Positions 11,101-49,027 of a stretch of DNA of 62,289 nucleotides are shown here, piece by piece. The stretch comes from a virus. Taxonomy: Duplodnaviria > Caudoviricetes. Positions within the stretch are counted from its first letter, which is position 1, and every line of letters starts with the position of its first letter. The position numbers and the translations under genes were made by a program. A model generated the notes under the pieces. It worked only from the letters and a program-made list of their open reading frames with translations. It was not told the origin of the DNA and searched no databases. The stretch covers positions 1 through 62,289 of IMG/VR virus record IMGVR_UViG_3300025654_000009; one strand, 5' to 3'.

Positions 11101-14100
11101 AAGAATTAATAGATTACTCTGAGAAAATTTTTAATAATGCAGACTTTGCTGTTAAAGAAGCACAGGCTATTAAACTTAATTCAGATGTAACAAAGAAACT
11201 TAATTCTGGAGCTTATGGTTTAAATACAGACTTGAATACAAGATTGTCAAATATTTTAAATACACCTATTAGTAACCTTACATCTGAAAATATAGATTCT
11301 TATAATGATTTTCTAAAAAGAATTAAGAACTCTAAAAAATCAGAATTAGCTCCATTTATATTAGAGGCTCAAAACTTATTTGACTCTTTGTATGTAGCAA
11401 CTCCAGAGGTTAGTGAAGAGGTAGAAACTAAAGAAGCTGAGACATTAAAAAATATAGTTGATAAAATAATTGATGAAGACGTAGATGGCGAAACATTACT
11501 TAAAGATAACAGTAAATTTATTGAAAATGATTTAGGTAAGTTAGATTCATTTGAGTTAGAAACTCTTATAGATAAGATTAATTTAGCTGAAACAGATGAA
11601 AATACTGATATAGTTCAGGCCGCTAATAACTATGCAGAGAACAGACAAAAGGTTTTAAACAACATAAAGTCAAGGTCTAAAGGAATTACTTTAAAAAACC
11701 TAGACACTACTACAAGAGAGGCAGGTGATGTTAATGTCTATAAAAACATAAAAGATTCTGATATAGTTGGGCTAACAGGTAATCAACTAATGGAATTAGA
11801 GATTACTCTTGAGAACATAAACGAAGGGTTTTATACTCATGCTGCAAACAAGCTTGGCCAATCTATAAACAGTAGGGCGCAAGATATTATGCCTATGATT
11901 ATGAAGTACGGAACTGGGAAACATAAAGCAGCTATGATTAAAACCTTTGGAGAATCCTATTTAAAAAGTAAGTATACAGGTAAAGGAGTAGCTCAGGAGA
12001 TGATAAGATCAAACCCATTGTCTGTTATTGATAATGTGTTTGGTAACTATGCAAATGAAAATATAAGGAACAATACATTTACACCTATAGCATCTAAATA
12101 CGCTGCATATAATGCTTGGGCAGCTAAGGCTACAGATAAACTTGCTGCTGTAGAAAAACTTTTAGCACCATCTTTAAAGGAAAGTGTAAATAAATCTGTT
12201 GAAAGAAATTTTGAAGTACAGATGTATCTATTGGCATTAGAGAGTGAAAGCAATCCAGGAGTAAAGGGTATTGATACTCCCAATGGATATGTGTCTGCTG
12301 TAGTAAAAAAATATAATAAAAACCCTCAAAAAAGCAGATACAATGAATCAGATATAGCAGTTTTAGAAGCTATGTTAAAAAAGTACAATGATAATGGTGT
12401 AGTTACAACTAAAAAAATGGATGAGTCTTTATCTCCTAAAGTAAAGAAGGCGATAAAGATAATGCGTGATGTTTATAATTCATTGTCAGACAAACAGGCT
12501 TATGCTACAACTATTGTTCGAGGAGGTAAATTAGATTTATTAAATAACTATGTACATCACAAAATGGATGTAGATACTAAGGGATTTTCTGAAAACAGAG
12601 ACCAAAATGATTCTCAATTGCAGAGTCAAATGAATTACTTTAACTCTAGTACAAAGTCAAAAACATCAATAAGCAGAACAGGAGTAAGTAATAATAAGTC
12701 TATTGACTTTAGTCCTGTTTCATCAGCACTTAGAGCAGTAAGGGCGGTGGGTATGGATTATTATCTAACAAATGAAATTCAAACAGAAAGAAAAGCGTTA
12801 AATGAATTAATTAAAATAACAGAAAGAAATACAGATAGAGAAGAAGTTATTCAGGCTGCTAAAGATTTAAATGAAGTATACACAGAAGCTATAGATAACG
12901 TTATTGGTTCTAACTTTAGCACCGATGTTGTTGGTGGTAAGCTTATGGATGTAGCAAAAAGAATAGGTTATTACGGAACACTAGCTTCTGTTCCTAGAGC
13001 AGTAGCTGAACTTGGTTCTAACTTAACTTTTGCACTTTTGGATAGTCCCCTTGAAACAATGGATGGGATGACTAAGTACGGTAAACTAGGGCTTGGGCAA
13101 AACGGAATGGATTTTGCTATAAATGTTGGAGCTATTTCTTACACTAAATTATATAATTCTGAAATATTATCAGGCTCTAAAGCAGAACAAGGAGGTGTTG
13201 TTAGAAATAAAAAGACAAGCAGCAGAACTAAACAAACTAAGTTAGGTGAGGGAATTGAGTATGCTGGTAGGTTTACTTCTCAAGGGGCTAAAGGAATTGA
13301 GTTTGTAGCAGATAACTTATTAAGTACTCCTGATAAAATGATTTCAAGACCTTTATTTTTTGGAACATTCGGTAGAACCTTTAAGTCTATAACAGGTCAA
13401 GAAATGGATGTAAATAAGATTTCAGAAAATGACCAAGAGTATATGGAAAAATATGCTGATGCTATTAAAGAATCTAGGATTGCTGCTGATAAAGCAGTAA
13501 CTCAAGCAGCAACTTCTAATGACCCATTTAGTGGTGTGTTAAAGAATCAATTAAAAGCAGGAGCAGGAAATACTGGTAAGAATTATTACAGAACACTTAA
13601 TTCATACATGGCTAGATTTACTATTAATGAATACGCTACAGCCAGACAAGCAATTGCATCTATGGTCGGTCAAGGGGATCAAAGCCCAATACAAGGAGCT
13701 GCAAAATTAACAGCTGTAATGGCTCGAATGAGTCTTTACGTTGTCTCTTATAAAGCTTTAACTGCTTTATGGCAATCAATGCTAGGTCTTGATGATGAAG
13801 ATGATGTTGATTACGAAGAGCTAGCTATAAGACAAGCGGTTGGTGCAGGAGTTTCATTAATAACAAGAGGTGTAACAGGGAACATTCCTCAGATTCTGCC
13901 AAACATAGGTATTGAAAGTTTTAATAAATCTTATGGAGAAGAGTTGGGCTTATGGTCAGATGATGATGGAAAAGGATATAATCAATACAAACATTCATTA
14001 ATTTTTTCTATTATTAACACAGAAAGTATAGAAAGAAAAGGAGCAGCATCAGCGTTAATAAATGTTTTGTCAGGGCCTTTATCAAATCAAGTAAATGCAA

Positions 14101-29915: not shown

Positions 29916-31487
29916 ATGAATCCAAAAGAATTATCCTTCGATCAGGAGGGGAGAGACAAATTATTAAGCGGAATCACTACAATTTCCAGAGCAGTAAAAA
30001 GTACATTAGGGCCACTTGGCAAGACAGTACTAATTGAATCACAGAATCATACAGGAGGAATTACCATTACTAAGGATGGGGTTACGGTTGCTAAGTCGAT
30101 TGACTTAGAGGACGCTGTAGAGAACTTGGCGATTACTATGATGAAGGAGGCTGCTGATAGAACTGCTACTTCTGCAGGAGATGGAACAACAACTGCGATT
30201 GTATTAACTGAGGCTATTGTAAAAGAGGGTATGCGATTAATACAGCGTAATCCAGAGATTAACACTACACAGTTAATTAGAGATATTAAAGTTGTTTCTG
30301 ATAATGTAATCAAGGAGTTAGATTTATCTTCAAAAAAAGTTACAGGTAAAACGTTACAGCATGTTGCTAGTATTTCTGCTAACAATGATAATGTAATAGG
30401 AAAAATGATTGCTAGTGCTTATAAGGAATTAGGTAAAGACGGAGTACTTACGGTTGAGAACAGCAAGACAGACAAAACATACTACGAGGTAACTAAAGGA
30501 ATTAAGATTGACAGGGGATATTCTTCAAAGCTGTTTATTAATAATCACAGAAACGATGAATGTATTTTAGATGATGTTTATGTTTTAATGACAGACATGG
30601 AGATTACTAATATACTTCAGATTGAAAATATATTAAAGCCAATAATAAATCAAAACAAGAAGCTTTTAATTATAGGAAATTGTTCAGGTAATGTAACAAA
30701 TACTTTAGCAGCGAATGTTATTCAAAATAACCTAAAGCTATGCAATATTATTCCTCCATCTTTTGGATACAAGACAAATGAATTGATGAGTGATATTGCG
30801 TTGGCTATAGGGGCAAAATATTTCAGCGAGTCACAGGGAGATAATATTGGGATGTTGTCTATGGAGGACTTAGGTCATGCAGACAAAATTATTGTAGGTC
30901 AGAATTCTACAGTAATTATGAATAATGATTCGAGTAGTAAAGAGGCTGTAACTAGAATTGAAGAATTAAAGGTTCAGAAGGAAAACAATTCAGACAAAAG
31001 AGAAAGAGATTTTATTTCTGAAAGAATTGCTTTATTATCTGGAGCTGTAGGAATAATTTATGTAGGAGCTGATTCTGATATAGAGCAGAAAGAAAAATAT
31101 GATCGAGTAGAGGATTCGGTATGTGCTGTTAAGTCTGCGATTGAGGAAGGGATACTTCCAGGCGGAGGGTTAGCTTTGTTGCGTTGTGCTGAACTGTTAG
31201 CGGATGGGAATGCTAATGATGTTATGTATGGAGCTTTGATATCACCATTAGAACAAATACTTACTAATGCAGGTGAAAACATAAAAGAAATAAGAGACAG
31301 GATATGTTCTTGTGCAAGTGTTCCTTACAATTTTGGATATGATGTTCAAAACAAAGTGTTTGGGGATATGTATAAGATGGGTGTTATAGATCCTGCTAAG
31401 GTTACAAAGAATGCATTAAAGAATGCAGTAAGTGTAGCGACAACAATATTAAGTACAAACGCAATAGTAACAATGAAAAGAAAATAA
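29916..31487 (+). CDS. groEL: Phage-encoded chaperonin GroEL (Cpn60)
   Basis: TLGP.G, ITKDGVTVAK, AGDGTTTA, ISANND, EEGILPGGG, GVIDPAKVT; no GGM tail. Confidence 0.97.
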   Translation: MNPKELSFDQEGRDKLLSGITTISRAVKSTLGPLGKTVLIESQNHTGGITITKDGVTVAKSIDLEDAVENLAITMMKEAADRTATSAGDGTTTAIVLTEAIVKEGMRLIQRNPEINTTQLIRDIKVVSDNVIKELDLSSKKVTGKTLQHVASISANNDNVIGKMIASAYKELGKDGVLTVENSKTDKTYYEVTKGIKIDRGYSSKLFINNHRNDECILDDVYVLMTDMEITNILQIENILKPIINQNKKLLIIGNCSGNVTNTLAANVIQNNLKLCNIIPPSFGYKTNELMSDIALAIGAKYFSESQGDNIGMLSMEDLGHADKIIVGQNSTVIMNNDSSSKEAVTRIEELKVQKENNSDKRERDFISERIALLSGAVGIIYVGADSDIEQKEKYDRVEDSVCAVKSAIEEGILPGGGLALLRCAELLADGNANDVMYGALISPLEQILTNAGENIKEIRDRICSCASVPYNFGYDVQNKVFGDMYKMGVIDPAKVTKNALKNAVSVATTILSTNAIVTMKRK

Positions 31488-31489
31488 AT

Positions 31490-31636
31490 ATGGAAAATGT
31501 ATTAATAGAAAGAAGAGCTGATAAAATAGCAGACAGTTTTGCAGGAAAATTATTTAAAGAAGGAGAAATCTCTGTTCAATCTGCAAATTCAGTTTACTTA
31601 AATGTTAAAAAAATTTTAATGGAAAATTTAAAGTGA
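31490..31636 (+). CDS. Small hypothetical protein (48 aa) between groEL and groES
   Basis: Hand-translated MENVLIERRADKIADSFAGKLFKEGE... Confidence 0.5.
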   Translation: MENVLIERRADKIADSFAGKLFKEGEISVQSANSVYLNVKKILMENLK

Positions 31637-31932
31637 TTAACAAAGAGTGGTTATGGATGCAAAAATTAAATAATATGAAAGCAGTAGGTAAGTACATTGT
31701 AATTACAGAAATAATTGAACAGCACAAAACTGAGTCAGGAATATTACTAACTTCAGACGATAGCAATCAACTAAGATACAAAAAAGGAATTATAGTTGTT
31801 CCAGGCACAGATGTAAGTGTTGTTAAAAAAGATGACCTTGTATTCTATGATAAGAACGCAGGTCACAAAATGATGTTAAATGAAGAGATGGTTACAATTA
31901 TATCTGAGAGAGATATTGTAGTAGTATTGTAA
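31633..31932 (+). CDS. groES: Co-chaperonin GroES (Cpn10)
   Basis: MKAVGKYIVI, KTESGILL mobile loop, VKKDDLVFY, IISERDIV; core starts at ATG 31675. Confidence 0.9.
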   Translation: MINKEWLWMQKLNNMKAVGKYIVITEIIEQHKTESGILLTSDDSNQLRYKKGIIVVPGTDVSVVKKDDLVFYDKNAGHKMMLNEEMVTIISERDIVVVL

Positions 31933-33976: not shown

Positions 33977-34267
33977 ATGGGATGTATAGGAAAAAAAGGA
34001 CAAGCATTAATTGATTGCAGAAAAGGATTAAAATTTACTTTATTAGGACAGGCAAGACAAGCTAATAATATAGCAAATAATGTTGATAGTAGAACTCCTG
34101 CTACTAAAAGAGATTCTATTCAGTACAGAAAAGGATTTTCATTAGGATTAAGAGGATTAAAACCTTCTAAACAAAGACTAAAGTACGAAGGAGAGCCTGA
34201 AATGGAAAAAATGGGTAGATGGGAAGGTCAAAACTCACCTTTAAGAAAAAAGAAAGAAAAAAAATAA
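33977..34267 (+). CDS. Small basic protein
   Basis: MGCIGKKGQ...; start reassigned. Confidence 0.6.
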   Translation: MGCIGKKGQALIDCRKGLKFTLLGQARQANNIANNVDSRTPATKRDSIQYRKGFSLGLRGLKPSKQRLKYEGEPEMEKMGRWEGQNSPLRKKKEKK

Positions 34268-34521
34268 TGGCAACACCGAGGAAAGGTAAAGCTAAAGTAA
34301 AAATTACTGCAAGCGGTAAAAAGGTAAGTTACGGACAAGCAGGTAGTGCTAAGGGTGGAGGCCCAAGAGTAAGACCTGGTACATCTAAAGGTGATAGCTA
34401 TTGTGCTAGGAGTTTAGGAATTAAAAAAAGACTTTCTGCTAAAAAAAGAAACGATCCTAATACTCCAAACAACTTATCTCGAAAGAGATGGAAGTGTTCA
34501 GGAGCTAAATCAAGAAAATAA
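34267..34521 (+). CDS. Small basic protein (SYCARS.G...DP...RWKC motif)
   Basis: MATPRKGKAK...; TAATG coupling. Confidence 0.7.
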   Translation: MATPRKGKAKVKITASGKKVSYGQAGSAKGGGPRVRPGTSKGDSYCARSLGIKKRLSAKKRNDPNTPNNLSRKRWKCSGAKSRK

Positions 34522-35175: not shown

Positions 35176-35333
35176 TAACTATGCAAGACATAAAAATATA
35201 TGCTTTAAATTTTTTAAGTATTAGCCTGTCTTTTACTGAAATGGAAATGGCGTTAAAATTAATTCTATTAACGGCTTCTATAGTTTATACAGCTCAAAGA
35301 ATATGGATTAATTATAATGAGAAAAATAAATAA
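35172..35333 (+). CDS. Putative small holin/antiholin (53 aa)
   Basis: Two hydrophobic segments, charged C-terminus, overlaps the endolysin start. Confidence 0.55.
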   Translation: MITMQDIKIYALNFLSISLSFTEMEMALKLILLTASIVYTAQRIWINYNEKNK

Positions 35334-35724
35334 AATAATTATTCATTGCGCAGCAACTAATCCAACTATGGATATTAATGCTGCTACTATCAATGAATGG
35401 CACTTAGAAAGAGGGTGGTCAGGTATTGGCTACCATTTTTTTATTAAAAGAGATGGTCAGATCGAACTAGGTAGGCCATTGGAGACCTCTGGAGCGCATA
35501 CAAAAGGAAATAACCGTAATAGTATAGGAATATGTTATGCAGGCGGTGTAGACCTTAAAAATTGCCCAGAAGACAATAGAACAAAAGAACAAAAAGAAAG
35601 TTTTATTTTATTATTAAAAACATTAAAAAATATATTTCCTAACGCAGTTATACATGGACATAGAGATTTTTCCTCTAAAGCATGTCCAAGTTTTGATGCA
35701 ACTAAAGAATACGAATTATTATGA
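35317..35724 (+). CDS. Endolysin, N-acetylmuramoyl-L-alanine amidase (T7 lysozyme-like)
   Basis: IIIHCAAT, GWSGIGYHF, GAH, SIGICYAGG, GHRDF, KACPSF. Confidence 0.95.
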   Translation: MRKINKIIIHCAATNPTMDINAATINEWHLERGWSGIGYHFFIKRDGQIELGRPLETSGAHTKGNNRNSIGICYAGGVDLKNCPEDNRTKEQKESFILLLKTLKNIFPNAVIHGHRDFSSKACPSFDATKEYELL

Positions 35725-36113
35725 AAAAAATATGGGAGTGGCTAAGTGGCAATGTAATTAAAGAAGTTGGAAATGTTCTTGATGAACTTATAACGACAGA
35801 TGAAGAAAGGCTCGTTGCTAAACAAAAAATTCAAGAAATATTAGAGAAAGCAGATACAGAAGCTCAACAAGCAGTTAGTGAACGTTGGAAATATGACATG
35901 CAAAGTGATTCTTTTTTGTCTAAAAATATTAGACCGTTGGTTTTAATATACTTGACTGTTATATTTACTGCATTATGTTTTACTGATGGTAATATAGCTG
36001 ATTTTGTAATAGCTAAAGAATACATACCTATTTTCCAAACATTACTTGTAACAGTATATGGAGCTTATTTTGTTGGAAGAAGTTGGGAGAAAGCTTCAAA
36101 GAAAAATAAATAA
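35721..36113 (+). CDS. Putative holin (3TM/GTA-holin-like)
   Basis: RWKYDM.SDSFLSKNIRP, hydrophobic helices, AYFVGRSWEK. Confidence 0.75.
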   Translation: MKKIWEWLSGNVIKEVGNVLDELITTDEERLVAKQKIQEILEKADTEAQQAVSERWKYDMQSDSFLSKNIRPLVLIYLTVIFTALCFTDGNIADFVIAKEYIPIFQTLLVTVYGAYFVGRSWEKASKKNK

Positions 36114-36392: not shown

Positions 36393-39365
36393 ATGGCAAA
36401 AATCAGCAATACTACATCATACCCTGGACAATCTCCGATTGAGGGGGCAGATTATTTAATTGGAACGGCAGCAAACTCTAATCCAATTGCAAAACAAACA
36501 AAAACTTTTACAGTACAAGGTATTGCTGATTTTGTTATTGACTCAGCATTTGATGGTGTGTCATATAGGCTTCCTATTTTTACTGCTTCATCTTCAGGTC
36601 TTGAATCTGTTAAAGTAGTAAATTCATTATTCTATCAAGATACAGCTTCATTGGGAGGAACTCCTACTGAAGTTCTTGGTACAACCGTTACTTTAAATAA
36701 CGGAGCAGGAGTGGGATCATTGATAGTGGCTCAAAATATTACTGCAGGATCAAATTTAACAATAACAGGTAATTCTGCTTTAGCAGGAACATTATCTGTA
36801 GGAGGAAATACAACATTAGGAACTGATGATAGTACTGAAGCAACTATTGAATCAGTATTAAACATTCAAGGGCCTGTAAAAGATTCAACAGGTACTTTAG
36901 GAAATTCTGAACAAGTTTTAGTTTCACGAGCTGATGGTCAGCTTCAATGGGAAAACTTTCAAGGTTCAGGATTAGAATATCAAGCTGCTTGGAATGCTTC
37001 AACAAATGTACCTGACTTACAAGCTTACCCATTAACATCCGACAATACAGGTAAGTATTGGGTGGTGTCAATAGCAGGAACAACCCCTTTAACAGATGCA
37101 GCAGGTGGAACAATAACAGATTGGGAAGCAGGCGATTGGGCAATTATCTCTGAAGATGTTGCAGGAAATGTATTTTGGGATAAAATTGATAACTCATCTG
37201 TATTAACAGGTCAAGGAACGACAGGTAATATAGCGATATGGACAGCTCCAAGAGAACTTGGTGATGCTCCAATAAAATTAGGAACAGGAGCTACATCTTT
37301 AAGATTTAACACTTCAGGTGATACAGCTGGAGCAAATGCAAGTGCTTTTGGAAACGGAACTTTAGCGGCAGGAGACAATTCTTTTGCAACAGGGGATAGT
37401 TCAGCTGCAAATGGAAACTTTTCAGTTGCTATGGGTAATCAATCAACTGCAACAGGACAGGCTTCATTTACTGTAGGTCTTGATACTATAGCAACAGGAA
37501 ATTATTCAGTTGCAATGGGAGATGGTGCAACTTCAGTAGGAACTTCTTCTATATCTTTAGGACAAACTACTACATCAACAGGTCTTCAATCATTAGCTAC
37601 GAATAAAGGAACGACAGCAACAGGAAACTTTTCAGTTGCAATGGGAGATGGTTCAGAAGCAATAGGTATAGGTTCGTTTGCTATGGGTAAAGATTCAATA
37701 GCAACAGGAGATTATTCAGTTGCAATGGGGGAAATAGCACATTCATTAGGAGAACAATCAGTAGCAATTGGTTCTATAGTTGATGCAAATGGATTAGATT
37801 CTTTAGCAATAGGTTCAAATAGTGTTAGTGCATCAGATAAATCAATTGCAATTGGTGATATAAATGTAGCAGGTTCAGTAGGTAATGGAGAAGCAATAGC
37901 AATTGGAGTTAGTAATAATTCTACAGGAGCTTCAAGTATAAGTTTAGGTCATTCTAATACAGTTTCTTCCACAGGTGGAGCTGCTTTAGGTTCTTCCAAT
38001 TCAGTTATAGGTGATTATGCTTTTGCACAAGGTAAAGGAAATAATGTTAGGTCTTCAAGCTCTATAGGTATTGGTTATCAGAATAGTGTAGCTGTAGCAT
38101 CTGATTATGCAGTAGCAATAGGTGATGAAAACATAGTTAGTGCATCTCATGCAGTAGCGATAGGTAATACAAATACTTCTTCAGCAGCAGATGCGGTGTC
38201 AATTGGTAAAACAAACATGGCTTCAGGCATATCTGCAGCAGCTATAGGATTAGGTACTACAGCATCAGGAGCTTCGTCAATAGCTTTAAATAACTCTACG
38301 GTAGCATCAGGAAGTAATTCTTTTGCTTCAGGATTTGAATCAACTGTAACAGGAGATTCAAGTACGTCAATGGGGTATAGGTCAGCTGTAGTAGGTAATT
38401 ATGCTTTTGCGGTAGGATTTGAGTCAGAAACAAACGGAGAAGCAGCAATTGCGTTAGGATATGATGTAGAAGCAGGTGCAGCAAGAACTGTTGCAATAGG
38501 AAGTGAGATAAATGCTGATGACCCTAAAACAATAGGTATAGGTCATGGACATGTAGTTAATGGAGATAATGCATTAGCAATCGGTAATGATTTACAAAGT
38601 TTTTCTTTTAGAGAAACTGTATTAGGTTCTTTTAATGATGACATTACAGGAAGCAAAAGTGCTTGGGTTGCTGCAGATAGAATTTTAACTGTTGGTAATG
38701 GAGAAGACGCTTTAAATAAAAGTAATGCTTTAGTATTATTAAAGTCAGGGGATTTACAATTGCCGAGTTATGGTTTAGGAAATATTACAGCAACAGCAGC
38801 TTACAACTTAGCTGTTACTGCAACAGGAAAAGTTATTGAAGTTGCCACAGGTGGTGGAGGTTCAGGAATTACAGGAAGCGGTACTGCAGGATATATAACT
38901 AAATGGAGTGGAACTACTGCTATTGGAAATTCAATTCTGTTTGAAAGTGGTACTAATATAGGGATTAATAATGTAAGTCCAAATCATGAATTAGATGTAA
39001 CAGGAGATATAAATCTTGATGCAGGTTCATTATTATTTAGTTCATTAGGTAGTGCTGCTCCAAGTTGGTCGATAGCAACTGATGCGTCAGGAGATTTAAT
39101 TATTGATGAAACCACAGGGCCTGATAATGTTATTTTCAGAAATGGTGGTGATGTAGGTGTAGGTTTAACAGGGTCAAATACTCCTCAAGCAAGATTAGAT
39201 GTAAATGGGGCTATAAGAATGGGAGATGATTCTTCCTCACCAACAGCATCTAATGTAGGAACTCAAAGATATAGGGTAAGTGGTAATAACAGTTATGTTG
39301 ATATGGTAATGCAAACAGGCGCAGCAACATACGCTTGGGTTAATATAGTTCAAAACAACTGGTAA
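36393..39365 (+). CDS. Tail fibre with YadA-like head repeats
   Basis: ~30 consecutive 14-residue A.G..S.A(M/I)G repeats in the central region. Confidence 0.85.
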   Translation: MAKISNTTSYPGQSPIEGADYLIGTAANSNPIAKQTKTFTVQGIADFVIDSAFDGVSYRLPIFTASSSGLESVKVVNSLFYQDTASLGGTPTEVLGTTVTLNNGAGVGSLIVAQNITAGSNLTITGNSALAGTLSVGGNTTLGTDDSTEATIESVLNIQGPVKDSTGTLGNSEQVLVSRADGQLQWENFQGSGLEYQAAWNASTNVPDLQAYPLTSDNTGKYWVVSIAGTTPLTDAAGGTITDWEAGDWAIISEDVAGNVFWDKIDNSSVLTGQGTTGNIAIWTAPRELGDAPIKLGTGATSLRFNTSGDTAGANASAFGNGTLAAGDNSFATGDSSAANGNFSVAMGNQSTATGQASFTVGLDTIATGNYSVAMGDGATSVGTSSISLGQTTTSTGLQSLATNKGTTATGNFSVAMGDGSEAIGIGSFAMGKDSIATGDYSVAMGEIAHSLGEQSVAIGSIVDANGLDSLAIGSNSVSASDKSIAIGDINVAGSVGNGEAIAIGVSNNSTGASSISLGHSNTVSSTGGAALGSSNSVIGDYAFAQGKGNNVRSSSSIGIGYQNSVAVASDYAVAIGDENIVSASHAVAIGNTNTSSAADAVSIGKTNMASGISAAAIGLGTTASGASSIALNNSTVASGSNSFASGFESTVTGDSSTSMGYRSAVVGNYAFAVGFESETNGEAAIALGYDVEAGAARTVAIGSEINADDPKTIGIGHGHVVNGDNALAIGNDLQSFSFRETVLGSFNDDITGSKSAWVAADRILTVGNGEDALNKSNALVLLKSGDLQLPSYGLGNITATAAYNLAVTATGKVIEVATGGGGSGITGSGTAGYITKWSGTTAIGNSILFESGTNIGINNVSPNHELDVTGDINLDAGSLLFSSLGSAAPSWSIATDASGDLIIDETTGPDNVIFRNGGDVGVGLTGSNTPQARLDVNGAIRMGDDSSSPTASNVGTQRYRVSGNNSYVDMVMQTGAATYAWVNIVQNNW

Positions 39366-42552: not shown

Positions 42553-45258
42553 ATGGGAATTAAGTTAATAAATAACGCTGAAATTAGTGGAGATTTAACA
42601 GTTTCTGGTGGTGATATAGTTTTAGGCGGAACAGGTAGAATACAAGGTGTAGATACTGTTTCAGCAGGAACAGATGCAGCAAATAAAAATTATGTTGATA
42701 ATAGTGTACCTACTGTAAGTAATGCTACGGTAACTGTAACTACAGGAACAGGTTTAGATGGAGCAACATCATTTTCTCTTAATCAATCAGCTAATAAAAC
42801 AATAGGATTAACTTTAGACTTAAATGAATTAGGTGCAGGTGGAACATTGCTTGGTACAGATAGCTTAGTTGCAGTAAATGGCACAGTAAGTAATAAACAA
42901 CTTATTTCTTCTATTCCTTTAAGTATATTCAATAATAACGCAGGTTGGACTTCTAACGTAGGGGATATAACAGGTGTTACAGCAGGTACAGGTATTAGTG
43001 GTGGTGGAACATCTGGAACTGTAACAGTTACCAATTCTGACAGAGGTTCATCACAAAGTATATTTAAAAATATTGCGGTTAGTGGACAATCAACAGTTGT
43101 TGCAGACAACAATAACGATACACTTACTTTTGTTGCAACTGGAGGAATGAGCATTACAACTGATGCTAGTACAGACACTATTACGTTTAATCCAAATGAT
43201 AATAATGATAACTTTTATCTTAATGGCATAAGTAAATCAGGTAATACACTTACATTTAGCGTGTTAGGTGCGGCAAACCAGCCGTATACATTTGGATCTA
43301 ATGCGTTTAATAGCACTACAATAGCGACAAATAACAATCAACTAACTAACGGAGCAGGATATACAACTAATATAGGAGATATAACTTCAGTAGGTGCAGG
43401 AACTTATTTAACAGGTGGCGGAACTTCAGGAGCGGTAACGCTTGATGTTGTTGCACAAAGTGGAGCTTCAGGTAGTACTTTAATGGCTAGGGATAGTGCC
43501 GCAGATACTACTGTTAGACTTTTAAGAGCTACTTATGCTGATCAAACCACAATAAGTGGAGCAATGGCTTTCAGAGTTAATAACGGAACAGATAATTACA
43601 CACGTTACTGTAGTAGTCCTTCAGCTATTAGAAATTTTATAGGAGCAGGTACTTCAAGTACATCAGGAACAGTAACAAGTGTTAGTGGAACAGGTACACA
43701 AAATGGATTAACTCTTACAGGTACAGTTACAAGTTCAGGTAACTTAACACTTGGAGGTAACTTAGCTATTAACAACTCAGATTGGTCAGGTACTGATTTA
43801 TCAGTTGCTAATGGTGGAACAGGAGCAAGTACAGCGTCAGCAGCTAGAGCAAACTTAGGAGTTGTAAATAATGTTGTACAGACAACTATTACAGGTAATG
43901 CAGGAAGTGCTACAGTTTTACAAACAGCAAGGACTATAGCAGGTGTATCGTTTAACGGTTCGGCTAACATCTCATTAAATAATAACGCAATTACAAATGG
44001 AGCAGGATATATAACATCCGGTTCATTACCTACTGTTAATAACGGAACGCTTACAATGACTACTAGCACAGGTCTTGATGGTGGAGCAACATTCACAGCT
44101 AATCAGTCAGGCAATTCTACATTTGCTGTTACATTAGATTTAACTGAAATTACATTAGGTGCTGGTTTAGATGCAACAGCAACAGGATTAAGTTTAGATT
44201 TATCTGAGTTTGTTGATATGACAGCAGCTATGCTTACTACTGATGAGTTTATAGTACTAGATGGTGGAGCAGAACGTAGAAAAGCTGCAGGTGAAATTGG
44301 CTTAAGTATATTTCTTAATGATGCTGGTTTTACAAGTAATACAGGGGATATAACATCGGTAACCGCAGGAACAGGGTTAAGTGGTGGAGGTTCATCAGGA
44401 GCTGTTACTATAACAAATTCAGCACCCAATGTTGATACCGACTTATCATCTCAACATTTTGTTGGAGCTGTCAGAATACATTCTTCTGATGGAACAAGCT
44501 GTGATATAGAGCCTGCAACTGGAGCGTTGGCAGGTATTGTTACAGCAGGAGGAACTCAATTTTTTGGAGGAACGAAATCATTTGGTAATGAAGTTATTAT
44601 AGGTCAAAAAATATCTCATAGTGGAGATGCTGATACATACATGGAATTCCATGCACTAGACCAATGGAGAGTTGTTACTGGTAATAGTGAAGGACTAGAG
44701 GTTACCAATAACCAAGTACTAGTTAATCGTCCTGACTTTTTAATACAAAACTCTGGAGACAGAATGATGGATGTTGATTCTGTTAATGGTACATTTTTCT
44801 TAGGAGACGTTGACGGTTTAGATGCTGAAAACTTTATAACTACTGAAAATGGTAGAATTGATTTAGTTGTAGGAGGTTCAGAAACGCTTAGTGTTAACCC
44901 AAACAATACATCTGTTGGTATTGGAAATACAAGTCCAGGATATAAATTAGACGTATCAGGTACAGGTAGATTTACTTCTACAGTTACTGCAACTAACTTT
45001 ATATTGTCTTCTGACGAAAGATTAAAAACAAAAGTAAAGACATTAACGCCTAATAAAATAGATGTTGCTTGGAAGTCTTTTGAAATGAAAGAAGAAAAGG
45101 GCTTATATAGAACAGGTGTTATAGCTCAAGAATTAGAAAAAACTCATCCTGAGTTTGTTGCGGATGATGCAGAAGGATATAAAACAGTTAAATACATAGA
45201 TTTATTAATAGCTAAAATTGCTGAATTAGAAGCAAGATTAGAAAAAGCAGGGATATAA
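42553..45258 (+). CDS. Tail fibre with C-terminal S74 intramolecular chaperone domain
   Basis: SSDERLKT...GVIAQELE..HPEFV...TVKY; GDIT.V.AGT.(L/I).GGG repeats. Confidence 0.85.
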   Translation: MGIKLINNAEISGDLTVSGGDIVLGGTGRIQGVDTVSAGTDAANKNYVDNSVPTVSNATVTVTTGTGLDGATSFSLNQSANKTIGLTLDLNELGAGGTLLGTDSLVAVNGTVSNKQLISSIPLSIFNNNAGWTSNVGDITGVTAGTGISGGGTSGTVTVTNSDRGSSQSIFKNIAVSGQSTVVADNNNDTLTFVATGGMSITTDASTDTITFNPNDNNDNFYLNGISKSGNTLTFSVLGAANQPYTFGSNAFNSTTIATNNNQLTNGAGYTTNIGDITSVGAGTYLTGGGTSGAVTLDVVAQSGASGSTLMARDSAADTTVRLLRATYADQTTISGAMAFRVNNGTDNYTRYCSSPSAIRNFIGAGTSSTSGTVTSVSGTGTQNGLTLTGTVTSSGNLTLGGNLAINNSDWSGTDLSVANGGTGASTASAARANLGVVNNVVQTTITGNAGSATVLQTARTIAGVSFNGSANISLNNNAITNGAGYITSGSLPTVNNGTLTMTTSTGLDGGATFTANQSGNSTFAVTLDLTEITLGAGLDATATGLSLDLSEFVDMTAAMLTTDEFIVLDGGAERRKAAGEIGLSIFLNDAGFTSNTGDITSVTAGTGLSGGGSSGAVTITNSAPNVDTDLSSQHFVGAVRIHSSDGTSCDIEPATGALAGIVTAGGTQFFGGTKSFGNEVIIGQKISHSGDADTYMEFHALDQWRVVTGNSEGLEVTNNQVLVNRPDFLIQNSGDRMMDVDSVNGTFFLGDVDGLDAENFITTENGRIDLVVGGSETLSVNPNNTSVGIGNTSPGYKLDVSGTGRFTSTVTATNFILSSDERLKTKVKTLTPNKIDVAWKSFEMKEEKGLYRTGVIAQELEKTHPEFVADDAEGYKTVKYIDLLIAKIAELEARLEKAGI

Positions 45259-45724: not shown

Positions 45725-45955
45725 ATGGATATAAGAAAAATTTCAGTAGGAGCAGACTATAAGTCTAGTGCTATGCACTATATATTAGGTCAAGATATTT
45801 TAAATGGAAATTATTGTATACATTTGATAAAGCATATAGAAGAAAACAATTCTATAAAAATTTGGATTGAAAACAAAAAAGGAGAAATATTCCTTTGGAA
45901 AGAGTTTAATTCTAATATGCCAATATCAATTGAATATAATATAAATTTTGAATGA
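45725..45955 (+). CDS. Hypothetical protein
   Basis: 76 aa, MDIRKISVGADYK..AMHY. Confidence 0.7.
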   Translation: MDIRKISVGADYKSSAMHYILGQDILNGNYCIHLIKHIEENNSIKIWIENKKGEIFLWKEFNSNMPISIEYNINFE

Positions 45956-46518
45956 AATCACCTTTTAATTTTATTGTAAAACCGAGCAATAACAAAAGGT
46001 ATGATAACACTATAAAGATTGGAAATGTTAATTTAATAACAAGTTCATCTAAAGAAGATCATACTGTATCTAATCGATACGCAATAGTTGTTGAAACTCC
46101 GATAAACTACACAGGCCCTATAAAGCCAGGAGACACCCTTTTAGTGCATCATAATGTATTTAAGTACTACAATGATATGCAGGGTAGAGAAAAGAGCGGA
46201 AAAAGCTTCTTTAAGGACGATTTGTTTTTTATAGACAACGATCAGTTTTTTATGTATAAGCAAAATGGAGAATGGAAAGCTCATTCTAAATACTGCATGA
46301 TTAAACCTATTGAAAAGGGTGGGAATCATTACCTTAAAACTCACGCAGAGGAAGAGCCATTAATTGGCTTAGTTAAGTATCCTAATAAGTACTTAATTAG
46401 TAAGGGTATTAATAAAGGCGATAAAGTTTCTTTTCAGCCAGATAGTGAATATGAATTTAATGTAGATGGTGAAAAACTATATAGAATGTTTGATAAAAAT
46501 ATAACAATGGTTTTATGA
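45952..46518 (+). CDS. Second co-chaperonin-like protein with two apparent GroES-type domains
   Basis: FIVKP...IKPGDTLLVHHN and MIKP...GINKGDKVSF....EFNVDGEKLYRM. Confidence 0.6.
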   Translation: MKSPFNFIVKPSNNKRYDNTIKIGNVNLITSSSKEDHTVSNRYAIVVETPINYTGPIKPGDTLLVHHNVFKYYNDMQGREKSGKSFFKDDLFFIDNDQFFMYKQNGEWKAHSKYCMIKPIEKGGNHYLKTHAEEEPLIGLVKYPNKYLISKGINKGDKVSFQPDSEYEFNVDGEKLYRMFDKNITMVL

Positions 46519-46802
46519 ACAATACTGAATTAAAATTAGAAATTATAAAAGCAGGTAAAAAAGCTGTACAAGAACTTATTAAAGTTGCTAATGAAGGTAT
46601 TTTAAAAAAAGACTTAGATGGGTTATCTCCTGATATTGCAGCAGATAGATTAAAAAATGCAGCAGCGTCTAAGAAGTTAGCTATATTTGATGCTTTTGAA
46701 ATTTTAACAAAAATTGAAGAAGAAAACAATATGCTTGATACTAATAATATAGATAATAAAGCTTCATCGTTTAAAGGGTTTGCTGAAGGAAGGTCAAAAT
46801 AA
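46515..46802 (+). CDS. Putative terminase small subunit
   Basis: 95-aa helical ORF coupled to terL; call is positional. Confidence 0.45.
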   Translation: MNNTELKLEIIKAGKKAVQELIKVANEGILKKDLDGLSPDIAADRLKNAAASKKLAIFDAFEILTKIEEENNMLDTNNIDNKASSFKGFAEGRSK

Positions 46803-49027
46803 TGTATAAACAAACTTTATATAAAATACTTGAAAATGTTATACCTCAAAAGGTATTAAAGTCTTACAATAAATCTAAGAAATGGAAGTATGGATATAAC
46901 AAGGAGTTTGATATAGTTGTTATTTCTAAAGATGGCACGATTGATGAAGTATATGAAATACAAAACTTAAAAATTGCTTTACCTCAAAAAAAAGATGTTT
47001 ATAATTTTGAAGGTAATTATTGGGGTAAATTAGAATATCCTAAAGAGTTAAGTAAAATTAAAAATGTATTTGATTGGGAAAAATATCCTGATACTTTTAA
47101 AGAAAAATGGTATGACTATATTGACAAAGAGTTTGAAAGGCGTGAAGAAGGTTTTTGGTTTAATAACAAAAACGTTCCTACTTATATTACTGGCTCTCAT
47201 TACATGTACTTGTGCTGGACCAAAATTGATATTGGGCAGCCAGACTTTAGAGAGTCCAATAGATTATTCTATATATTTTGGGAGGCATGCAAAGCGGACG
47301 TTCGTTCATACGGAATGTGCTATCTTAAAAACAGGCGTTCAGGCTTTTCGTTTATGTCCTCATCAGAACTCGTGCATACAGCAACCACCTCACGTGACTC
47401 ACGTTTTGGCATATTGTCAAAAACAGGGTCGGATGCTAAGAAGATGTTCACCGATAAGGTCGTACCAATATCCCTCAACTATCCGTTCTTCTTCAAACCA
47501 ATCCAAGACGGAATGGACAGGCCGAAGACGGAGCTTGCGTATAGAATCCCAGCATCCAAACTTACCAGAAAGAAACTTGATCAAAATCAAGCCGTTGAGG
47601 AACTCGAAGGTCTCGATACCACCATTGACTGGAAAAACACAGGGGACAACTCATACGATGGGGAAAAATTAAAAATACTTGCTCACGATGAAAGTGGGAA
47701 ATGGGAAAGACCTGATAATATATTAAATAACTGGAGGGTTACTAAAACCTGTCTTAGATTAGGTTCTAGAATTATTGGAAAATGTATGATGGGAAGTACC
47801 TCAAATTCTCTTGAAAAAGGAGGAGGTAATTTTAAAAAATTGTATTTAGATTCCGATGTGGGAAAACGAAACAAGAATGGTCAAACCAAAAGCGGACTAT
47901 ATTCACTTTTCATCCCTATGGAATGGAATTATGAAGGATTTATTGATATATATGGGCATCCTGTATTTGATGAACCTTTAAAAGAATTAGAAGGCCCTTT
48001 AGGAGAGGTTATAGACCAAGGAGTTGTTGATCATTGGAATAATGAAGTTGAAGGACTCAAGTCTGACCCTGATGGATTAAACGAATACTATAGACAATTT
48101 CCAAGAACAGAATCACATGCTTTTAGAGATGAAAGCAAACAATCTTTATTTAATTTACAGAAGTTATATCAACAAATAGATTACAATGATTCTTTAATAA
48201 AAGACAGATTTGTAACAAGAGGTTCTTTTTCTTGGAAAAATGGAATACAAGATACAGAAGTTATTTTTTCTCCAAATGATAGGGGTAGATTTTATGTTAC
48301 ATGGACTCCAAATAAACAATTACAAAATCAATACTATTTTAAAAACGGAATTAAATATCCTGGAAATGAACACATGGGAGCTTTTGGTTGTGACAGTTAT
48401 GATATATCAGGGACTGTTGGTGGTGGAGGGTCAAATGGTGCATTACATGGTATGACAAAATTCCATATGGATGAAGGGCCAACTAATGAGTTTTTTTTAG
48501 AGTACATAGCAAGACCTCAAACAGCTGAAATATTTTTTGAAGATGTGTTAATGGCGTGTGTATTTTATGGAATGCCTATTCTTATTGAAAATAACAAACC
48601 ACGTTTATTATATCATTTTAAAAATAGAGGGTACAGGGGGTTTTCTATGAATAGACCTGACAAAATTTACACAAAACTTTCTAAAACAGAAAAAGAATTA
48701 GGTGGTATGCCAAACAGTTCTGAAGATATAAAACAAGCTCACGCAGCAGCTATAGAATCTTATATTGAAAAACATGTGGGATTTGATTTGTCAGGTGCTT
48801 TTAGAGACTCTGATTTAATAGGTTCAATGTATTTTATTAGAACATTAGAAGACTGGGCAAGGTTTGATATTAACAATAGAACAAAATTTGATGCGTCAAT
48901 AAGTTCAGGTTTAGCTATAATGGCTACACAAAAGAATCTCTACCAACCCATTAAAAAGAAATCAAAAATAAAACTTAACTTTGCAAGATATGACAATAAG
49001 GGAAGTTATAGCCAAATTATACAATAA
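46802..49027 (+). CDS. terL: Terminase large subunit
   Basis: KNRRSGFS (Walker A variant), HDESGK (Walker B), GSTSN, GCDSYD nuclease, IENN; precedes portal. Confidence 0.9.
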   Translation: MYKQTLYKILENVIPQKVLKSYNKSKKWKYGYNKEFDIVVISKDGTIDEVYEIQNLKIALPQKKDVYNFEGNYWGKLEYPKELSKIKNVFDWEKYPDTFKEKWYDYIDKEFERREEGFWFNNKNVPTYITGSHYMYLCWTKIDIGQPDFRESNRLFYIFWEACKADVRSYGMCYLKNRRSGFSFMSSSELVHTATTSRDSRFGILSKTGSDAKKMFTDKVVPISLNYPFFFKPIQDGMDRPKTELAYRIPASKLTRKKLDQNQAVEELEGLDTTIDWKNTGDNSYDGEKLKILAHDESGKWERPDNILNNWRVTKTCLRLGSRIIGKCMMGSTSNSLEKGGGNFKKLYLDSDVGKRNKNGQTKSGLYSLFIPMEWNYEGFIDIYGHPVFDEPLKELEGPLGEVIDQGVVDHWNNEVEGLKSDPDGLNEYYRQFPRTESHAFRDESKQSLFNLQKLYQQIDYNDSLIKDRFVTRGSFSWKNGIQDTEVIFSPNDRGRFYVTWTPNKQLQNQYYFKNGIKYPGNEHMGAFGCDSYDISGTVGGGGSNGALHGMTKFHMDEGPTNEFFLEYIARPQTAEIFFEDVLMACVFYGMPILIENNKPRLLYHFKNRGYRGFSMNRPDKIYTKLSKTEKELGGMPNSSEDIKQAHAAAIESYIEKHVGFDLSGAFRDSDLIGSMYFIRTLEDWARFDINNRTKFDASISSGLAIMATQKNLYQPIKKKSKIKLNFARYDNKGSYSQIIQ
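47064..47672 (+). CDS. Overprinted (+1 frame) putative lipoprotein inside terL
   Basis: 202 stop-free codons; basic N-region, FLLILLALITC signal; local GC ~47% vs ~25-32% in sampled flanks. Confidence 0.5.
   Translation: MYLIGKNILILLKKNGMTILTKSLKGVKKVFGLITKTFLLILLALITCTCAGPKLILGSQTLESPIDYSIYFGRHAKRTFVHTECAILKTGVQAFRLCPHQNSCIQQPPHVTHVLAYCQKQGRMLRRCSPIRSYQYPSTIRSSSNQSKTEWTGRRRSLRIESQHPNLPERNLIKIKPLRNSKVSIPPLTGKTQGTTHTMGKN

What the first reader, a model, noticed from the sequence alone, without database searches (positions are those of the whole stretch)
47064..47672. Lipoprotein-like ORF overprinted on the terminase ATPase domain
Seen: 202 stop-free +1 codons in an AT-rich genome. GC is ~47% in sampled lines of 47281-47580 and falls to ~32% just past the stop. 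From Met 47112 the protein has a basic n-region, a hydrophobic FLLILLALIT stretch and Cys (lipobox-like). Knowledge: nested out-of-frame lipoproteins exist (lambda Rz1 in Rz), but normally in lysis genes. The lysis cassette here shows no obvious spanin. Inference: a hidden envelope protein (lysis or exclusion) embedded in an essential enzyme gene.
Basis: partly seen in the sequence, partly recalled or inferred. Interest (0 to 1): 0.75.

Follow-up and report, generated by a model that had tools for sequence, protein, structure and literature searches.

The report
Hidden lipoprotein-like gene inside phage terminase
A second, out-of-frame gene for an exported, probably lipid-anchored protein lies hidden inside the DNA-packaging (terminase) gene of a marine phage and of well over a hundred of its relatives, which makes it an unusually clear natural case of one stretch of DNA coding for two proteins.

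Summary
The +1 ORF 47064-47672 lies inside terL (46802-49027). Over terL codons 104-290 the +1 frame has no stop in the window and in 42 of 81 homologous terL genes (TerL 68-92% identical); 17 more keep a shortened ORF and 22 are closed. Shuffling synonymous codons gives the window 3.8 stops on average and no stops in 1 of 1000 trials.

The GC3 rise is seen only where the frame is open, and it ends at each lineage's own +1 stop codon. That excludes recombination with a higher-GC relative.

Codon choice at unchanged TerL residues builds a basic n-region, a hydrophobic core, a fixed C-T-C-S/A-G motif, and a hydrophilic, strongly basic, disordered tail.

A derived sister clade of 35 unique genes moved the hydrophobic segment about 14 codons upstream, where it now ends in a canonical lipobox, [I/T/S]-G-S-C, and lost both older cysteines.

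The gene was gained once and lost at least 9 times. No relocated copy exists in closed genomes.

Verdict: a genuine overprinted gene for an exported, probably lipoprotein-type accessory envelope protein. Function is untested. No description was found in three literature searches.

The parts
46802..49027 (+). terL (terminase large subunit, 741 aa), the host gene read in frame 0
   Evidence: ORF. PHROG 6681 at E 2.5e-168. tblastn hits annotated as terminase large subunit in MW202828 and NC_055854. The portal gene follows at 49028.
47064..47672 (+).
   Evidence: The stop-to-stop open stretch is 206 codons.
47112..47672 (+). Most likely coding sequence of the overprinted gene (186 aa plus TAA)
   Evidence: ATG at this aligned site in 39 of 42 open homologues and in 66 of 79 unique window-type genes, against 8 of 22 closed lineages. 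Many relatives have a +1 stop between the positions of 47064 and 47112.
47112..47174 (+). Basic n-region (residues 1-21; five Lys in the window)
   Evidence: Sequence. Charge upstream of the hydrophobic core is +5 in the window, with a mean of +2.9 over 39 proteins.
47175..47204 (+). Hydrophobic h-region (FLLILLALIT)
   Evidence: Mean Kyte-Doolittle score of the core is 2.79 in 43 open and 2.78 in 17 shortened genes, against 0.34 in 22 closed lineages, 19 of which have a stop inside it. T-ending terL codons are fixed in open lineages (ACT 40 of 40 at Thr130, ATT/ATC 33 of 33 at Ile129), where closed lineages use ACA and ATA.
47205..47219 (+). C-T-C-A-G motif (C32, T33, C34, A/S35, G36); C34 is the candidate lipidation or functional cysteine
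   Evidence: C32, T33 and C34 are present in 79 of 79 unique window-type genes, and S35 in 72 of 79. C34 needs terL Leu137 to be NTG: 43 of 43 open against 9 of 22 closed. T33 needs Tyr136 to be TAC: 43 of 43 against 11 of 22.
47220..47669 (+). Hydrophilic, strongly basic, disordered tail (residues 37-186); this is also the GC3-rich patch of terL
   Evidence: Mean tail net charge +17.8, pI 10.9, GRAVY -0.72; rich in T, S, R, L, Q and P. AlphaFold pLDDT is below 50 for residues 35-186. GC3 is 0.40-0.55 here in open lineages and 0.21-0.22 in closed ones.
47670..47672 (+). TAA stop of the short form; terL GC3 falls back to background directly after it
   Evidence: 25 of 43 open genes end here and 18 end at terL codons 313-320. 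GC3 of codons 291-318 is 0.27 in the short forms and 0.69 in the long forms.

Best explanation
47112-47672 is a real protein-coding gene overprinted in the +1 frame on terL.

Shown:
- Selection keeps the frame open.
- Selection shapes the encoded protein through terL's synonymous sites into four elements: a Lys-rich n-region, an 11-15 residue hydrophobic core, a cysteine motif, and a 150-200 residue hydrophilic, polycationic, disordered tail.
- The gene arose once in a large clade of marine podovirus-like phages.
- It was later remodelled in one subclade, so that the hydrophobic segment ends in a canonical lipobox.
- It has been lost repeatedly without replacement.

Inferred:
- It is translated by internal initiation, at ATG 47112 in the window, from the late mRNA that also encodes TerL.
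- The N-terminus acts as a Sec signal with the N-terminus inside and the tail in the periplasm.
- The product is a lipoprotein. I put this at about 0.7 for the derived clade. For the window type I put it at about 0.5 with Cys34 as the lipidated residue; there the -1 residue is Thr, because TerL Tyr136 only allows Thr or Ile.

Most likely role (weakly supported): an accessory envelope protein acting late in infection. My leading guess, at about 0.3, is destabilisation of the outer membrane or envelope at lysis, taking the place of a spanin or disruptin. Masking of a receptor or superinfection exclusion, in the manner of Llp or Cor, is next at about 0.25.

The confidence of 0.85 applies to 'real overprinted gene for an exported, membrane-tethered protein'. 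It does not apply to the role.
For: 1. Openness. There are no +1 stops over terL codons 104-290 in 43 of 82 genes (window plus 81 loci found through TerL peptides). Another 17 keep 112-213 open codons that include the hydrophobic core. 22 have 6-13 stops.

2. Shuffles. In the open genes, synonymous shuffles expect 2.9-7.1 stops and give zero stops with probability at most 0.014. Closed genes match their shuffles. The other four frames carry 3-32 stops. The test was repeated on 151 unique genes over codons 120-250. Window-type genes had 0 observed against 3.50 expected, the derived type 0 against 3.39, and closed genes 5.48 against 6.57.

3. Divergence. Open genes share a median 77.5% nucleotide identity over the overlap and form 16 clusters at 85% identity.

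4. GC3 follows the ORF. Short forms have GC3 0.55 in codons 251-290, then 0.27 in 291-318. Long forms have 0.62, then 0.69, then 0.25 after their stop. Forms that end at codon 259 have 0.17-0.20 in 251-290. Closed genes have 0.21-0.29 throughout.

5. Directional codon choice at identical TerL residues.
- Leu175 TTA, which makes a +1 TAA, is used in 0 of 43 open and 18 of 22 closed genes.
- Third positions in the tail shift to C and G, which turns I/L/F/M into T/S/P/R. Tail GRAVY is -0.68 in open and +0.24 in closed lineages.
- The hydrophobic core, by contrast, keeps T at third positions.

6. Cysteine motif and relocated lipobox.
- C-T-C is present in 79 of 79 window-type genes.
- In the derived clade (35 unique genes, one clade of 31 leaves with support 1.0, nested among window-type lineages), both of those Cys are replaced. 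A new Cys arises from TerL Met121 (35 of 35), preceded by Gly and by Ser (TTC in 33 of 35).
- A lipobox pattern recalled from memory hits 33 of 35 of these genes, with the Cys at residue 32, and ATG is at the new start in 35 of 35.

7. Structure. AlphaFold with 39 sequences gives a helix at residues 2-34 and no confident structure for the rest.

8. Uniqueness. There is no second copy in the window's genome. In five closed genomes, two of them 100% complete, the only match is the terL +1 frame with 6-10 stops. A profile search of 1.84 billion representatives found 144 clusters, and the twelve I read are all the same ORF or chimeras of it.
Against: - No expression data. Nothing here shows translation. 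The metatranscriptome contig that covers 47227-47497 could be DNA carry-over, and terL must be transcribed anyway.
- The window type fails the canonical lipobox at -1 (Thr) in 79 of 79 genes.
- By my entropy measure, the tail shows no more site-specific codon conservation than the non-overlapped part of terL: ratio 0.788 against 0.787. Selection on the tail therefore looks compositional rather than sequence-specific.
- No dedicated promoter signal: TAnnTTTG lies upstream in 21 of 43 open and 9 of 22 closed genes.
- 7 of 79 window-type genes have only TTG as a possible start.
- Repeated loss, at least 9 times, shows the gene is dispensable. That fits a core lysis role poorly.
- No family, fold or language-model match gives a functional hint.
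Confidence: 0.85

Rival explanations
1. The patch is a mosaic segment acquired from a higher-GC relative, and the +1 frame is open only because GC-rich sequence has fewer stops. There is no second gene.
For: GC and GC3 are locally raised. GC-rich DNA does carry fewer out-of-frame stops.
Against: - Shuffles that keep the local codon usage still expect 3-7 stops.
- The four other alternative frames of the same patch are full of stops.
- GC3 ends at each lineage's own +1 stop, at three different positions.
- Closed lineages nested among open ones have background GC3, in both the patch tree and the outside-patch tree.
Confidence: 0.02
2. The +1 frame is kept open because translation through it, or an RNA or DNA feature of the patch, regulates TerL synthesis or packaging. 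The peptide itself has no function.
For: By the entropy ratio, the tail shows no excess site-specific conservation over the rest of terL: 0.788 against 0.787. The tail is predicted to be disordered.
Against: - Codon choice is directional in protein terms: a hydrophobic core, then a hydrophilic cationic tail.
- C-T-C is fixed in 79 of 79 window-type genes.
- In the derived clade the hydrophobic segment and the Cys were rebuilt upstream as a canonical lipobox, at the cost of amino-acid changes in TerL: Met121, Cys122 and Val/Ile135. A purely regulatory reading does not predict this.
Confidence: 0.05
3. The +1 frame is reached by programmed ribosomal frameshifting from terL. This would give a TerL N-terminus fused to the +1 tail, rather than an independently initiated protein.
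For: Public protein sets hold chimeras of the TerL N-terminus joined to the +1 sequence: P0001, P0002, P0004, P0008 and P0015.
Against: - The junctions lie at different places in each chimera, two of them in a run of T. That is what indel errors or mutations in assemblies would give.
- Many open genes have a +1 stop only 6 codons before the conserved ATG.
- ATG is enriched at the start site: 40 of 43 open against 8 of 22 closed, Fisher p 2e-6, not corrected for phylogeny.
- The derived clade has its own ATG in 35 of 35 genes.
- An N-terminal signal peptide only works at an N-terminus.
Confidence: 0.03
4. The gene is real, but in the window type the product is not a lipoprotein. The hydrophobic segment would be an uncleaved signal anchor or a signal-peptidase-I substrate, and the C-T-C motif would serve disulfide bonding or metal binding.
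For: - Thr at -1 before both Cys in 79 of 79 genes, so there is no strict lipobox match.
- AlphaFold draws one continuous helix over residues 2-34.
- Two derived-type genes have Leu at -1.
Against: - Every other lipobox position fits: 79 of 79 match if Thr is allowed at -1.
- Thr33 is itself selected over Ile, the only alternative TerL allows: 43 of 43 against 11 of 22.
- Ser or Ala follows Cys34 in 75 of 79 genes.
- The derived clade replaced this arrangement by a canonical lipobox. That suggests the same job was being done before.
Confidence: 0.35

Closest known systems
Lambda Rz1 nested in Rz and T7 gene 18.7 nested in 18.5 (o-spanin lipoprotein genes embedded out of frame in i-spanin genes)
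   Same: A phage gene lying wholly inside another gene on the same strand in another frame. The product has an N-terminal signal and Cys and a low-complexity periplasmic part. The T7 pair is annotated in NC_001604. What is known of lambda Rz1 is recalled.
   Different: - The host gene is terL, not the functional partner, and it lies 11 kb from the amidase/holin pair.
- The mature part is 150-200 residues and strongly basic, not a short Pro-rich peptide.
- No i-spanin partner was seen.
- The window type lacks G/A/S at -1.
phiX174 lysis gene E nested in +1 of gene D (recalled knowledge)
   Same: Overprinted in the +1 frame of an essential gene, with an N-terminal hydrophobic segment followed by a basic, unstructured C-terminal part.
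   Different: This phage has its own amidase and holin. It has a charged n-region before the hydrophobic core, which suggests the opposite topology. It has a conserved Cys or lipobox, and it is dispensable, having been lost at least 9 times.
T7 genes 19.2 and 19.3 (hypothetical ORFs inside terL, gene 19)
   Same: ORFs annotated in the +1 frame inside a terminase large subunit gene: 38016-38273 and 38553-38726 within 37370-39130.
   Different: There is no meaningful sequence similarity (BLASTP E 0.044 for a single comparison), and no signal-peptide-like N-terminus is visible in their translations. I did not test their conservation. They remain 'hypothetical' in the record.
Phage exclusion lipoproteins such as T5 Llp or Cor of phi80/N15 (recalled knowledge)
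   Same: Small phage-encoded lipoproteins that are accessory, often gained and lost, and act on the envelope.
   Different: Those are stand-alone genes with, as far as I recall, folded products and early expression. Here the gene sits in a late gene and its product is predicted to be disordered. No sequence relation was tested.

Membership tests
Overprinted (nested, same-strand, out-of-frame) viral gene | ORF lies wholly inside another coding sequence in a different frame | tested here: met
   47064/47112-47672 lies inside 46802-49027 at frame +1. The same holds in all 160 fetched IMG/VR loci.
Overprinted (nested, same-strand, out-of-frame) viral gene | Frame kept open in diverged homologues beyond what the host gene's protein and codon usage give | tested here: met
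   43 of 82 are fully open and 17 shortened. The shuffle probability of zero stops is at most 0.014 per open gene. In the wider set, 114 of 151 unique genes are open over codons 120-250, though part of that set was found with +1 peptides and is biased towards open frames.
Overprinted (nested, same-strand, out-of-frame) viral gene | Composition or codon footprint bounded by the ORF | tested here: met
   GC3 falls to background directly after each lineage's own +1 stop, at codon 259, 290 or 313-320.
Overprinted (nested, same-strand, out-of-frame) viral gene | Product is made (translation shown) | not testable with these tools
   Only contigs of metagenome and metatranscriptome runs were available.
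Bacterial lipoprotein (signal peptidase II substrate) | Positively charged n-region followed by a hydrophobic h-region | tested here: met
   n-region charge has a mean of +2.9 and is +5 in the window. The best 12-residue hydropathy window has a mean of 2.7. The h-core scores 2.79 in open and 0.34 in closed lineages.
Bacterial lipoprotein (signal peptidase II substrate) | Lipobox with G/A/S at -1 before the Cys (pattern recalled from PROSITE/DOLOP-type rules) | tested here: not met
   Window type: 0 of 79 hits, because -1 is Thr, and 79 of 79 if Thr is allowed. Derived type: 33 of 35 hits, with the Cys at residue 32.
Bacterial lipoprotein (signal peptidase II substrate) | The Cys is invariant and under selection | tested here: met
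   C34 is present in 79 of 79 genes and needs Leu137 to be NTG (43 of 43 open against 9 of 22 closed). In the derived clade the new Cys is present in 35 of 35 genes through TerL Met121.
Bacterial lipoprotein (signal peptidase II substrate) | Lipid modification and Lsp cleavage | not testable with these tools
   Needs labelling or globomycin experiments. SignalP and LipoP were not available.
o-spanin (Rz1 / gp18.7 type) | Gene embedded in, overlapping or next to an i-spanin gene of the lysis cassette | tested here: not met
   The host gene is terL. The amidase and holin genes lie at 35317-36113.
u-spanin (T1 gp11 type) | N-terminal lipoprotein signal plus a C-terminal transmembrane segment | tested here: not met
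   The highest 15-residue hydropathy window downstream of residue 40 has a mean of 0.87 and a maximum of 1.41 in 39 proteins. There is no second hydrophobic segment.
Single-gene lysis protein of the phiX174 E type | Sole lysis function of a phage that lacks holin and endolysin | tested here: not met
   Amidase (PHROG 822, E 2.2e-59) and holin (PHROG 3427, E 2.6e-29) are present.

The most novel reading that the evidence does not exclude
This de novo-born lipoprotein, overprinted on terL, is the missing outer-membrane step of lysis in this group of Bacteroidota-type marine phages. It would be tethered in the envelope by its lipid anchor, and its long polycationic disordered tail would destabilise the outer membrane once the amidase has cut the wall. 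That would make it a spanin or disruptin analogue born inside a packaging gene. Lineages that lost it would rely on shear or on another factor.
Probability: 0.2. Interest if true: 0.9.

Novelty: new variant of a known kind. Interest (0 to 1): 0.8.

Why it matters
- **Rare quality of evidence.** Long, well-supported overlapping genes are rare in tailed phages, and annotation pipelines discard them. This one has 186-238 codons and a single origin. Its product is visibly sculpted through the synonymous sites of an essential enzyme gene.
- **A signal peptide rebuilt in place.** In one subclade the signal peptide was rebuilt into a canonical lipobox, at the price of amino-acid changes in TerL.
- **A natural series of losses.** The gene was lost at least nine times, and after each loss GC3 decays back to background. 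This gives a natural time series of gene birth, refinement and death under dual coding.
- **Ecological reach.** It adds an unannotated envelope protein to a widespread marine phage group. Near-identical DNA turned up in runs of 17 studies.
- **Practical consequences.** 'Synonymous' terL sites in this clade are not neutral, which matters because terL is a common phylogenetic marker. Frameshifted chimeric proteins of this locus also sit in public protein sets.
- **An open question.** If the product acts at lysis, it would bear on how Bacteroidota phages breach the outer membrane.

Tried and rejected
- **Family and look-alike searches on the +1 protein.** Pfam, PHROGs and NCBIfam gave no hits. 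The ESM Atlas gave no usable hit.
- **Word-index protein search.** It returned 24 hits. The nine I read are the same overlapped ORF, and several are frameshift chimeras. No stand-alone homologue was seen.
- **TerL domain mapping.** Pfam on 18 TerLs gave only chance-level hits. PDB sequence and profile searches gave none. The AlphaFold model of TerL with 18 sequences had pLDDT 41.3, so I ran no fold search. The ATPase-domain statement therefore stays unverified.
- **Internal promoter.** The Bacteroidetes-type -7 motif TAnnTTTG (recalled) within 200 nt upstream occurs in 21 of 43 open and 9 of 22 closed genes, so there is no signal.
- **Sequencing runs.**
  - Contigs of three marine or sediment DNA runs and one metatranscriptome were laid on terL.
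  - They form a mixture of many relatives.
  - One RNA-library contig (47227-47497) is identical to the window.
  - Contigs cannot show a start, a strand or translation, and DNA carry-over is possible. I draw no conclusion from this.
- **Bacteroidetes Q-rule** (PMC5837995; abstract and passages seen). I looked for a signal-peptidase-I site exposing Gln. The residue before the conserved Gln is N, Q or H in many relatives, so I rejected this.
- **T7 gp19.2.** BLASTP E 0.044 for a single comparison, which I treat as noise.
- **Stop-codon recoding in closed lineages.** Rejected, because their +1 stops include both TAG and TAA.
- **Not used:** Complex prediction and fold search.
Full report
**What is there.** The window is a complete (CheckV 100%) 62,289-base virus record. 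It belongs to a podovirus-like phage from marine metagenomes. Its nearest named relatives are MW202828 (TerL 68% identical) and, at 44%, Flavobacterium 'elemo', Cellulophaga, Tenacibaculum and Maribacter phages. The 741-aa ORF 46802-49027 is the terminase large subunit (PHROG 6681, E 2.5e-168), and the portal gene follows it. GC is 0.446 in 47250-47650 against 0.309 in the rest of terL, and GC3 is 0.50 against 0.20.

**Is it more than chance?** I permuted synonymous codons within terL codons 104-290, which keeps the TerL protein and the local codon usage. The +1 frame then has 3.82 stops on average and none in 1 of 1000 trials. The other four alternative frames of the same stretch carry 17, 10, 9 and 11 stops. 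GC-richness alone therefore does not explain the open frame.

**Relatives.** A TerL-based scan of IMG/VR returned 80 loci (TerL 70-92% identical), and I added MW202828. Of these 82 genes, counting the window:
- 43 have no +1 stop over codons 104-290;
- 17 have 1-5 stops but keep 112-213 open codons that include the hydrophobic core;
- 22 have 6-13 stops.

In every open gene the shuffle expectation is 2.9-7.1 stops, and the chance of zero stops is at most 0.014. Closed genes match their own shuffles. Open genes are well diverged: median nucleotide identity over the overlap is 77.5% (range 70-99%), and they form 16 clusters at 85% identity.

**The GC rise is a footprint of the second frame, not of recombination.** GC3 is raised only in genes with the open frame, and it stops at each lineage's own +1 stop.

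| Group | GC3, codons 251-290 | GC3, codons 291-318 | GC3, codons 323-360 |
|---|---|---|---|
| Short forms, end at codon 290 (n=25) | 0.55 | 0.27 | 0.27 |
| Long forms, end at 313-320 (n=18) | 0.62 | 0.69 | 0.25 |
| Forms ending at 259 | 0.17-0.20 | | |
| Closed genes | 0.22 | 0.25 | 0.26 |

Over all ten segments examined, closed genes stay between 0.21 and 0.29. Closed lineages are nested among open ones both in a tree made outside the overlap and in one made from the overlap itself. After loss of the frame, composition therefore relaxes to the AT-rich background.

**What selection builds.** I compared codon choice between open and closed lineages at the same TerL residues.

- *Stop-prone codons are avoided.* Leu175 TTA is used in 0 of 43 open genes against 18 of 22 closed ones.
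- *The hydrophobic core keeps T at third positions.*
  - Pro126 is CCT in 29 of 30 open genes that have Pro there.
  - Thr127 is ACT in 35 of 35, and Thr130 is ACT in 40 of 40.
  - Ile129 is ATT or ATC in 33 of 33.
  - Closed lineages use CCA, ACA and ATA at these sites.
  - The +1 residues are therefore Leu and Ile. Core hydropathy is 2.79 in open, 2.78 in shortened and 0.34 in closed genes, and 19 of 22 closed genes have a stop inside the core.
- *The motif after the core is fixed.* C32 is forced by TerL Met-Tyr. The next three positions are not forced.
  - T33 needs Tyr136 to be TAC: 43 of 43 open against 11 of 22 closed.
  - C34 needs Leu137 to be NTG: 43 of 43 against 9 of 22.
  - S35 needs Gln138 to be CAG: 38 of 40 against 5 of 22.
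- *The tail shifts to C and G at third positions*. This turns I/L/F/M into T/S/P/R. Tail GRAVY is -0.68 in open and +0.24 in closed lineages, and net charge is +15 against +8.5.

Over 39 full-length proteins the tail has a mean net charge of +17.8, a pI of 10.9, and is rich in T, S, R, L, Q and P. AlphaFold with these 39 sequences gives a helix at residues 2-34 and pLDDT below 50 for residues 35-186 (alignment A1). A1 used 38 of the 42 open loci. I left out L018, L021 and L022, which have ACG at the start site, and L073, which contains an X.

By an entropy measure the tail shows no more site-specific codon conservation than the non-overlapped part of terL (0.788 against 0.787). Selection there looks compositional, although single sites are strongly skewed. 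Enrichment in high-degeneracy residues is the pattern reported for proven viral overlapping genes (PMC6195259, abstract seen).

**Start.** ATG 47112 is the consensus start. It is present in 39 of 42 open loci and in 66 of 79 unique window-type genes, against 8 of 22 closed genes (Fisher p 2e-6, uncorrected for phylogeny). Many relatives have a +1 stop between the positions of 47064 and 47112. 72 of 79 window-type genes have an ATG upstream of the core, and 7 have only TTG. I found no sign of a dedicated promoter. Internal initiation on the late terL message is an inference.

**A second form of the gene.** A profile of A1 searched against 1.84 billion representatives found 144 clusters. Some of the diverged ones have a different N-terminus. 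With them I fetched 80 further IMG/VR loci. That query was a +1 peptide profile, so this second set is biased towards open frames. All of these loci again lie in frame +1 of a 737-760 aa terL wherever the terL is complete.

Of 162 genes, 156 are unique at the nucleotide level:
- 79 window type (A);
- 35 derived type (B);
- 6 partial;
- 31 closed;
- 5 fragments, which I set aside.

In type B:
- The start is an ATG 14 codons further upstream (35 of 35).
- The hydrophobic segment lies where type A has its n-region.
- It ends in [I/T/S]-G-S-C. Gly comes from Trp119. Ser comes from Phe120 TTC (33 of 35). Cys comes from TerL Met121 (35 of 35).
- Both type A cysteines are replaced. TerL 135 is Val or Ile, which gives Ser in 32 of 35. 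Leu137 is CTC or CTT.
- The former hydrophobic core is now hydrophilic.

A lipobox pattern that I recalled from PROSITE/DOLOP-type rules hits 33 of 35 B genes, with the Cys at residue 32. It hits 0 of 79 A genes, or 79 of 79 if Thr is allowed at -1. B is one clade of 31 leaves (support 1.0) nested among A lineages inside a 146-leaf clade (support 1.0), so B derives from A. That tree has 150 leaves, because fragments and genes with fewer than 400 residues outside the overlap were dropped. Shuffles over codons 120-250 give 0 observed against 3.50 expected for A, 0 against 3.39 for B, and 5.48 against 6.57 for closed genes.

A hydrophobic segment plus cysteine was rebuilt in canonical form, at the cost of amino-acid changes in TerL. 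That is the strongest argument that the product is exported and that the cysteine matters. It makes a lipoprotein the best reading.

**History.** Parsimony on the 150-leaf tree gives one gain at the base of the 146-leaf clade, 9 losses, and one apparent regain that is more likely further losses. On the first 82-leaf tree the result was one gain, 7 losses and one regain. The outgroups MW202828, L003/L004 and L009 and the elemo phage NC_055854 are closed and show no GC3 rise. Five closed genomes, two of them 100% complete, hold no relocated copy: the only match is the terL +1 frame with 6-10 stops. The window's genome has one copy. The gene is therefore accessory.

**Function.** No family, fold or language-model hint was obtained. 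The genome has an amidase (35317-35724) and a holin-family gene (35721-36113), flanked by a 53-aa membrane ORF and a 79-aa coiled-coil ORF, and no evident spanin. Spanins are only sporadically annotated in flavobacterial phages (PMC8776804, passages seen). The product has no second transmembrane segment, so it does not have u-spanin architecture. It does not sit in an i-spanin gene, so it is not an Rz1-type o-spanin by gene arrangement.

My working model is a late-made, envelope-tethered protein whose polycationic disordered tail lies in the periplasm. It would either help breach the outer membrane at lysis (about 0.3) or mask a receptor and so exclude other phages (about 0.25). Repeated loss argues against an indispensable role.

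**Comparison and novelty.** The kind is known: nested out-of-frame phage genes such as Rz1 in Rz, T7 18.7 in 18.5 and phiX174 E in D (recalled). T7 even carries two hypothetical +1 ORFs inside its terL, which are unrelated in sequence. What is new here is a long lipoprotein-like gene family overprinted on terL, with population-scale evidence for selection, a relocated lipobox and multiple losses. Three literature searches listed no description of it. I judged this from the listings only.

**Limits.**
- There is no evidence of translation.
- SignalP and LipoP were not available.
- The lipobox and promoter motifs are recalled patterns.
- The trees are FastTree trees of TerL and ignore recombination.
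- The counts from the second locus set are biased towards open frames.

Noticed in passing
window 29916-31487, 31633-31932 and 45952-46518: The phage encodes a GroEL-like chaperonin (PHROG 5725, E 2.5e-127) with a GroES-like gene beside it (PHROG 3188). A second ORF, just upstream of the terL region, also matches a 'co-chaperonin GroES' PHROG (13932, E 1.5e-25).
   Followed up: no
window 5184-14495: A single 3103-aa ORF. Only its C-terminal third matches a PHROG of unknown function (32588, E 5.7e-70). It is probably a giant virion or internal protein.
   Followed up: no
proteins P0001, P0002, P0004, P0008, P0015, P0013, P0022: Public protein sets contain chimeras that start as TerL and continue in the +1 frame, or the reverse, with junctions at different places. 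Two junctions lie in a run of T. These are probably indel errors or natural frameshift variants that gene callers followed because the +1 frame is open.
   Followed up: partly
window 46802-49027 (TerL residues 176-183 and 291-297): This TerL family has no Pfam or PDB sequence match. Its Walker-A-like stretch, KNRRSGFS (KSRRTGYT in the elemo phage), has an aromatic residue where the usual GK[ST] has the lysine.
   Followed up: partly
window 42553-45258: This 901-aa tail or structural gene (GC 0.35-0.40) carries four antisense ORFs of 96-163 aa: 42783-43178, 43605-44096, 44103-44429 and 44616-44906. I did not test whether this is more than a composition effect.
   Followed up: no
window 34219-34521: A 100-aa, extremely Lys/Arg-rich ORF lies upstream of the lysis genes, with no PHROG match.
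   Followed up: no
loci L091-L129 and others (type B clade), terL codons 90-135: In the derived clade, TerL itself differs at several otherwise conserved positions: Trp92 to Phe, Trp103 to Tyr, residue 121 to Met, Asn122 to Cys, and Met135 to Val or Ile. Each change alters the +1 product in the direction of a signal peptide and lipobox, so the overprinted gene appears to have shaped the enzyme's sequence.
   Followed up: partly
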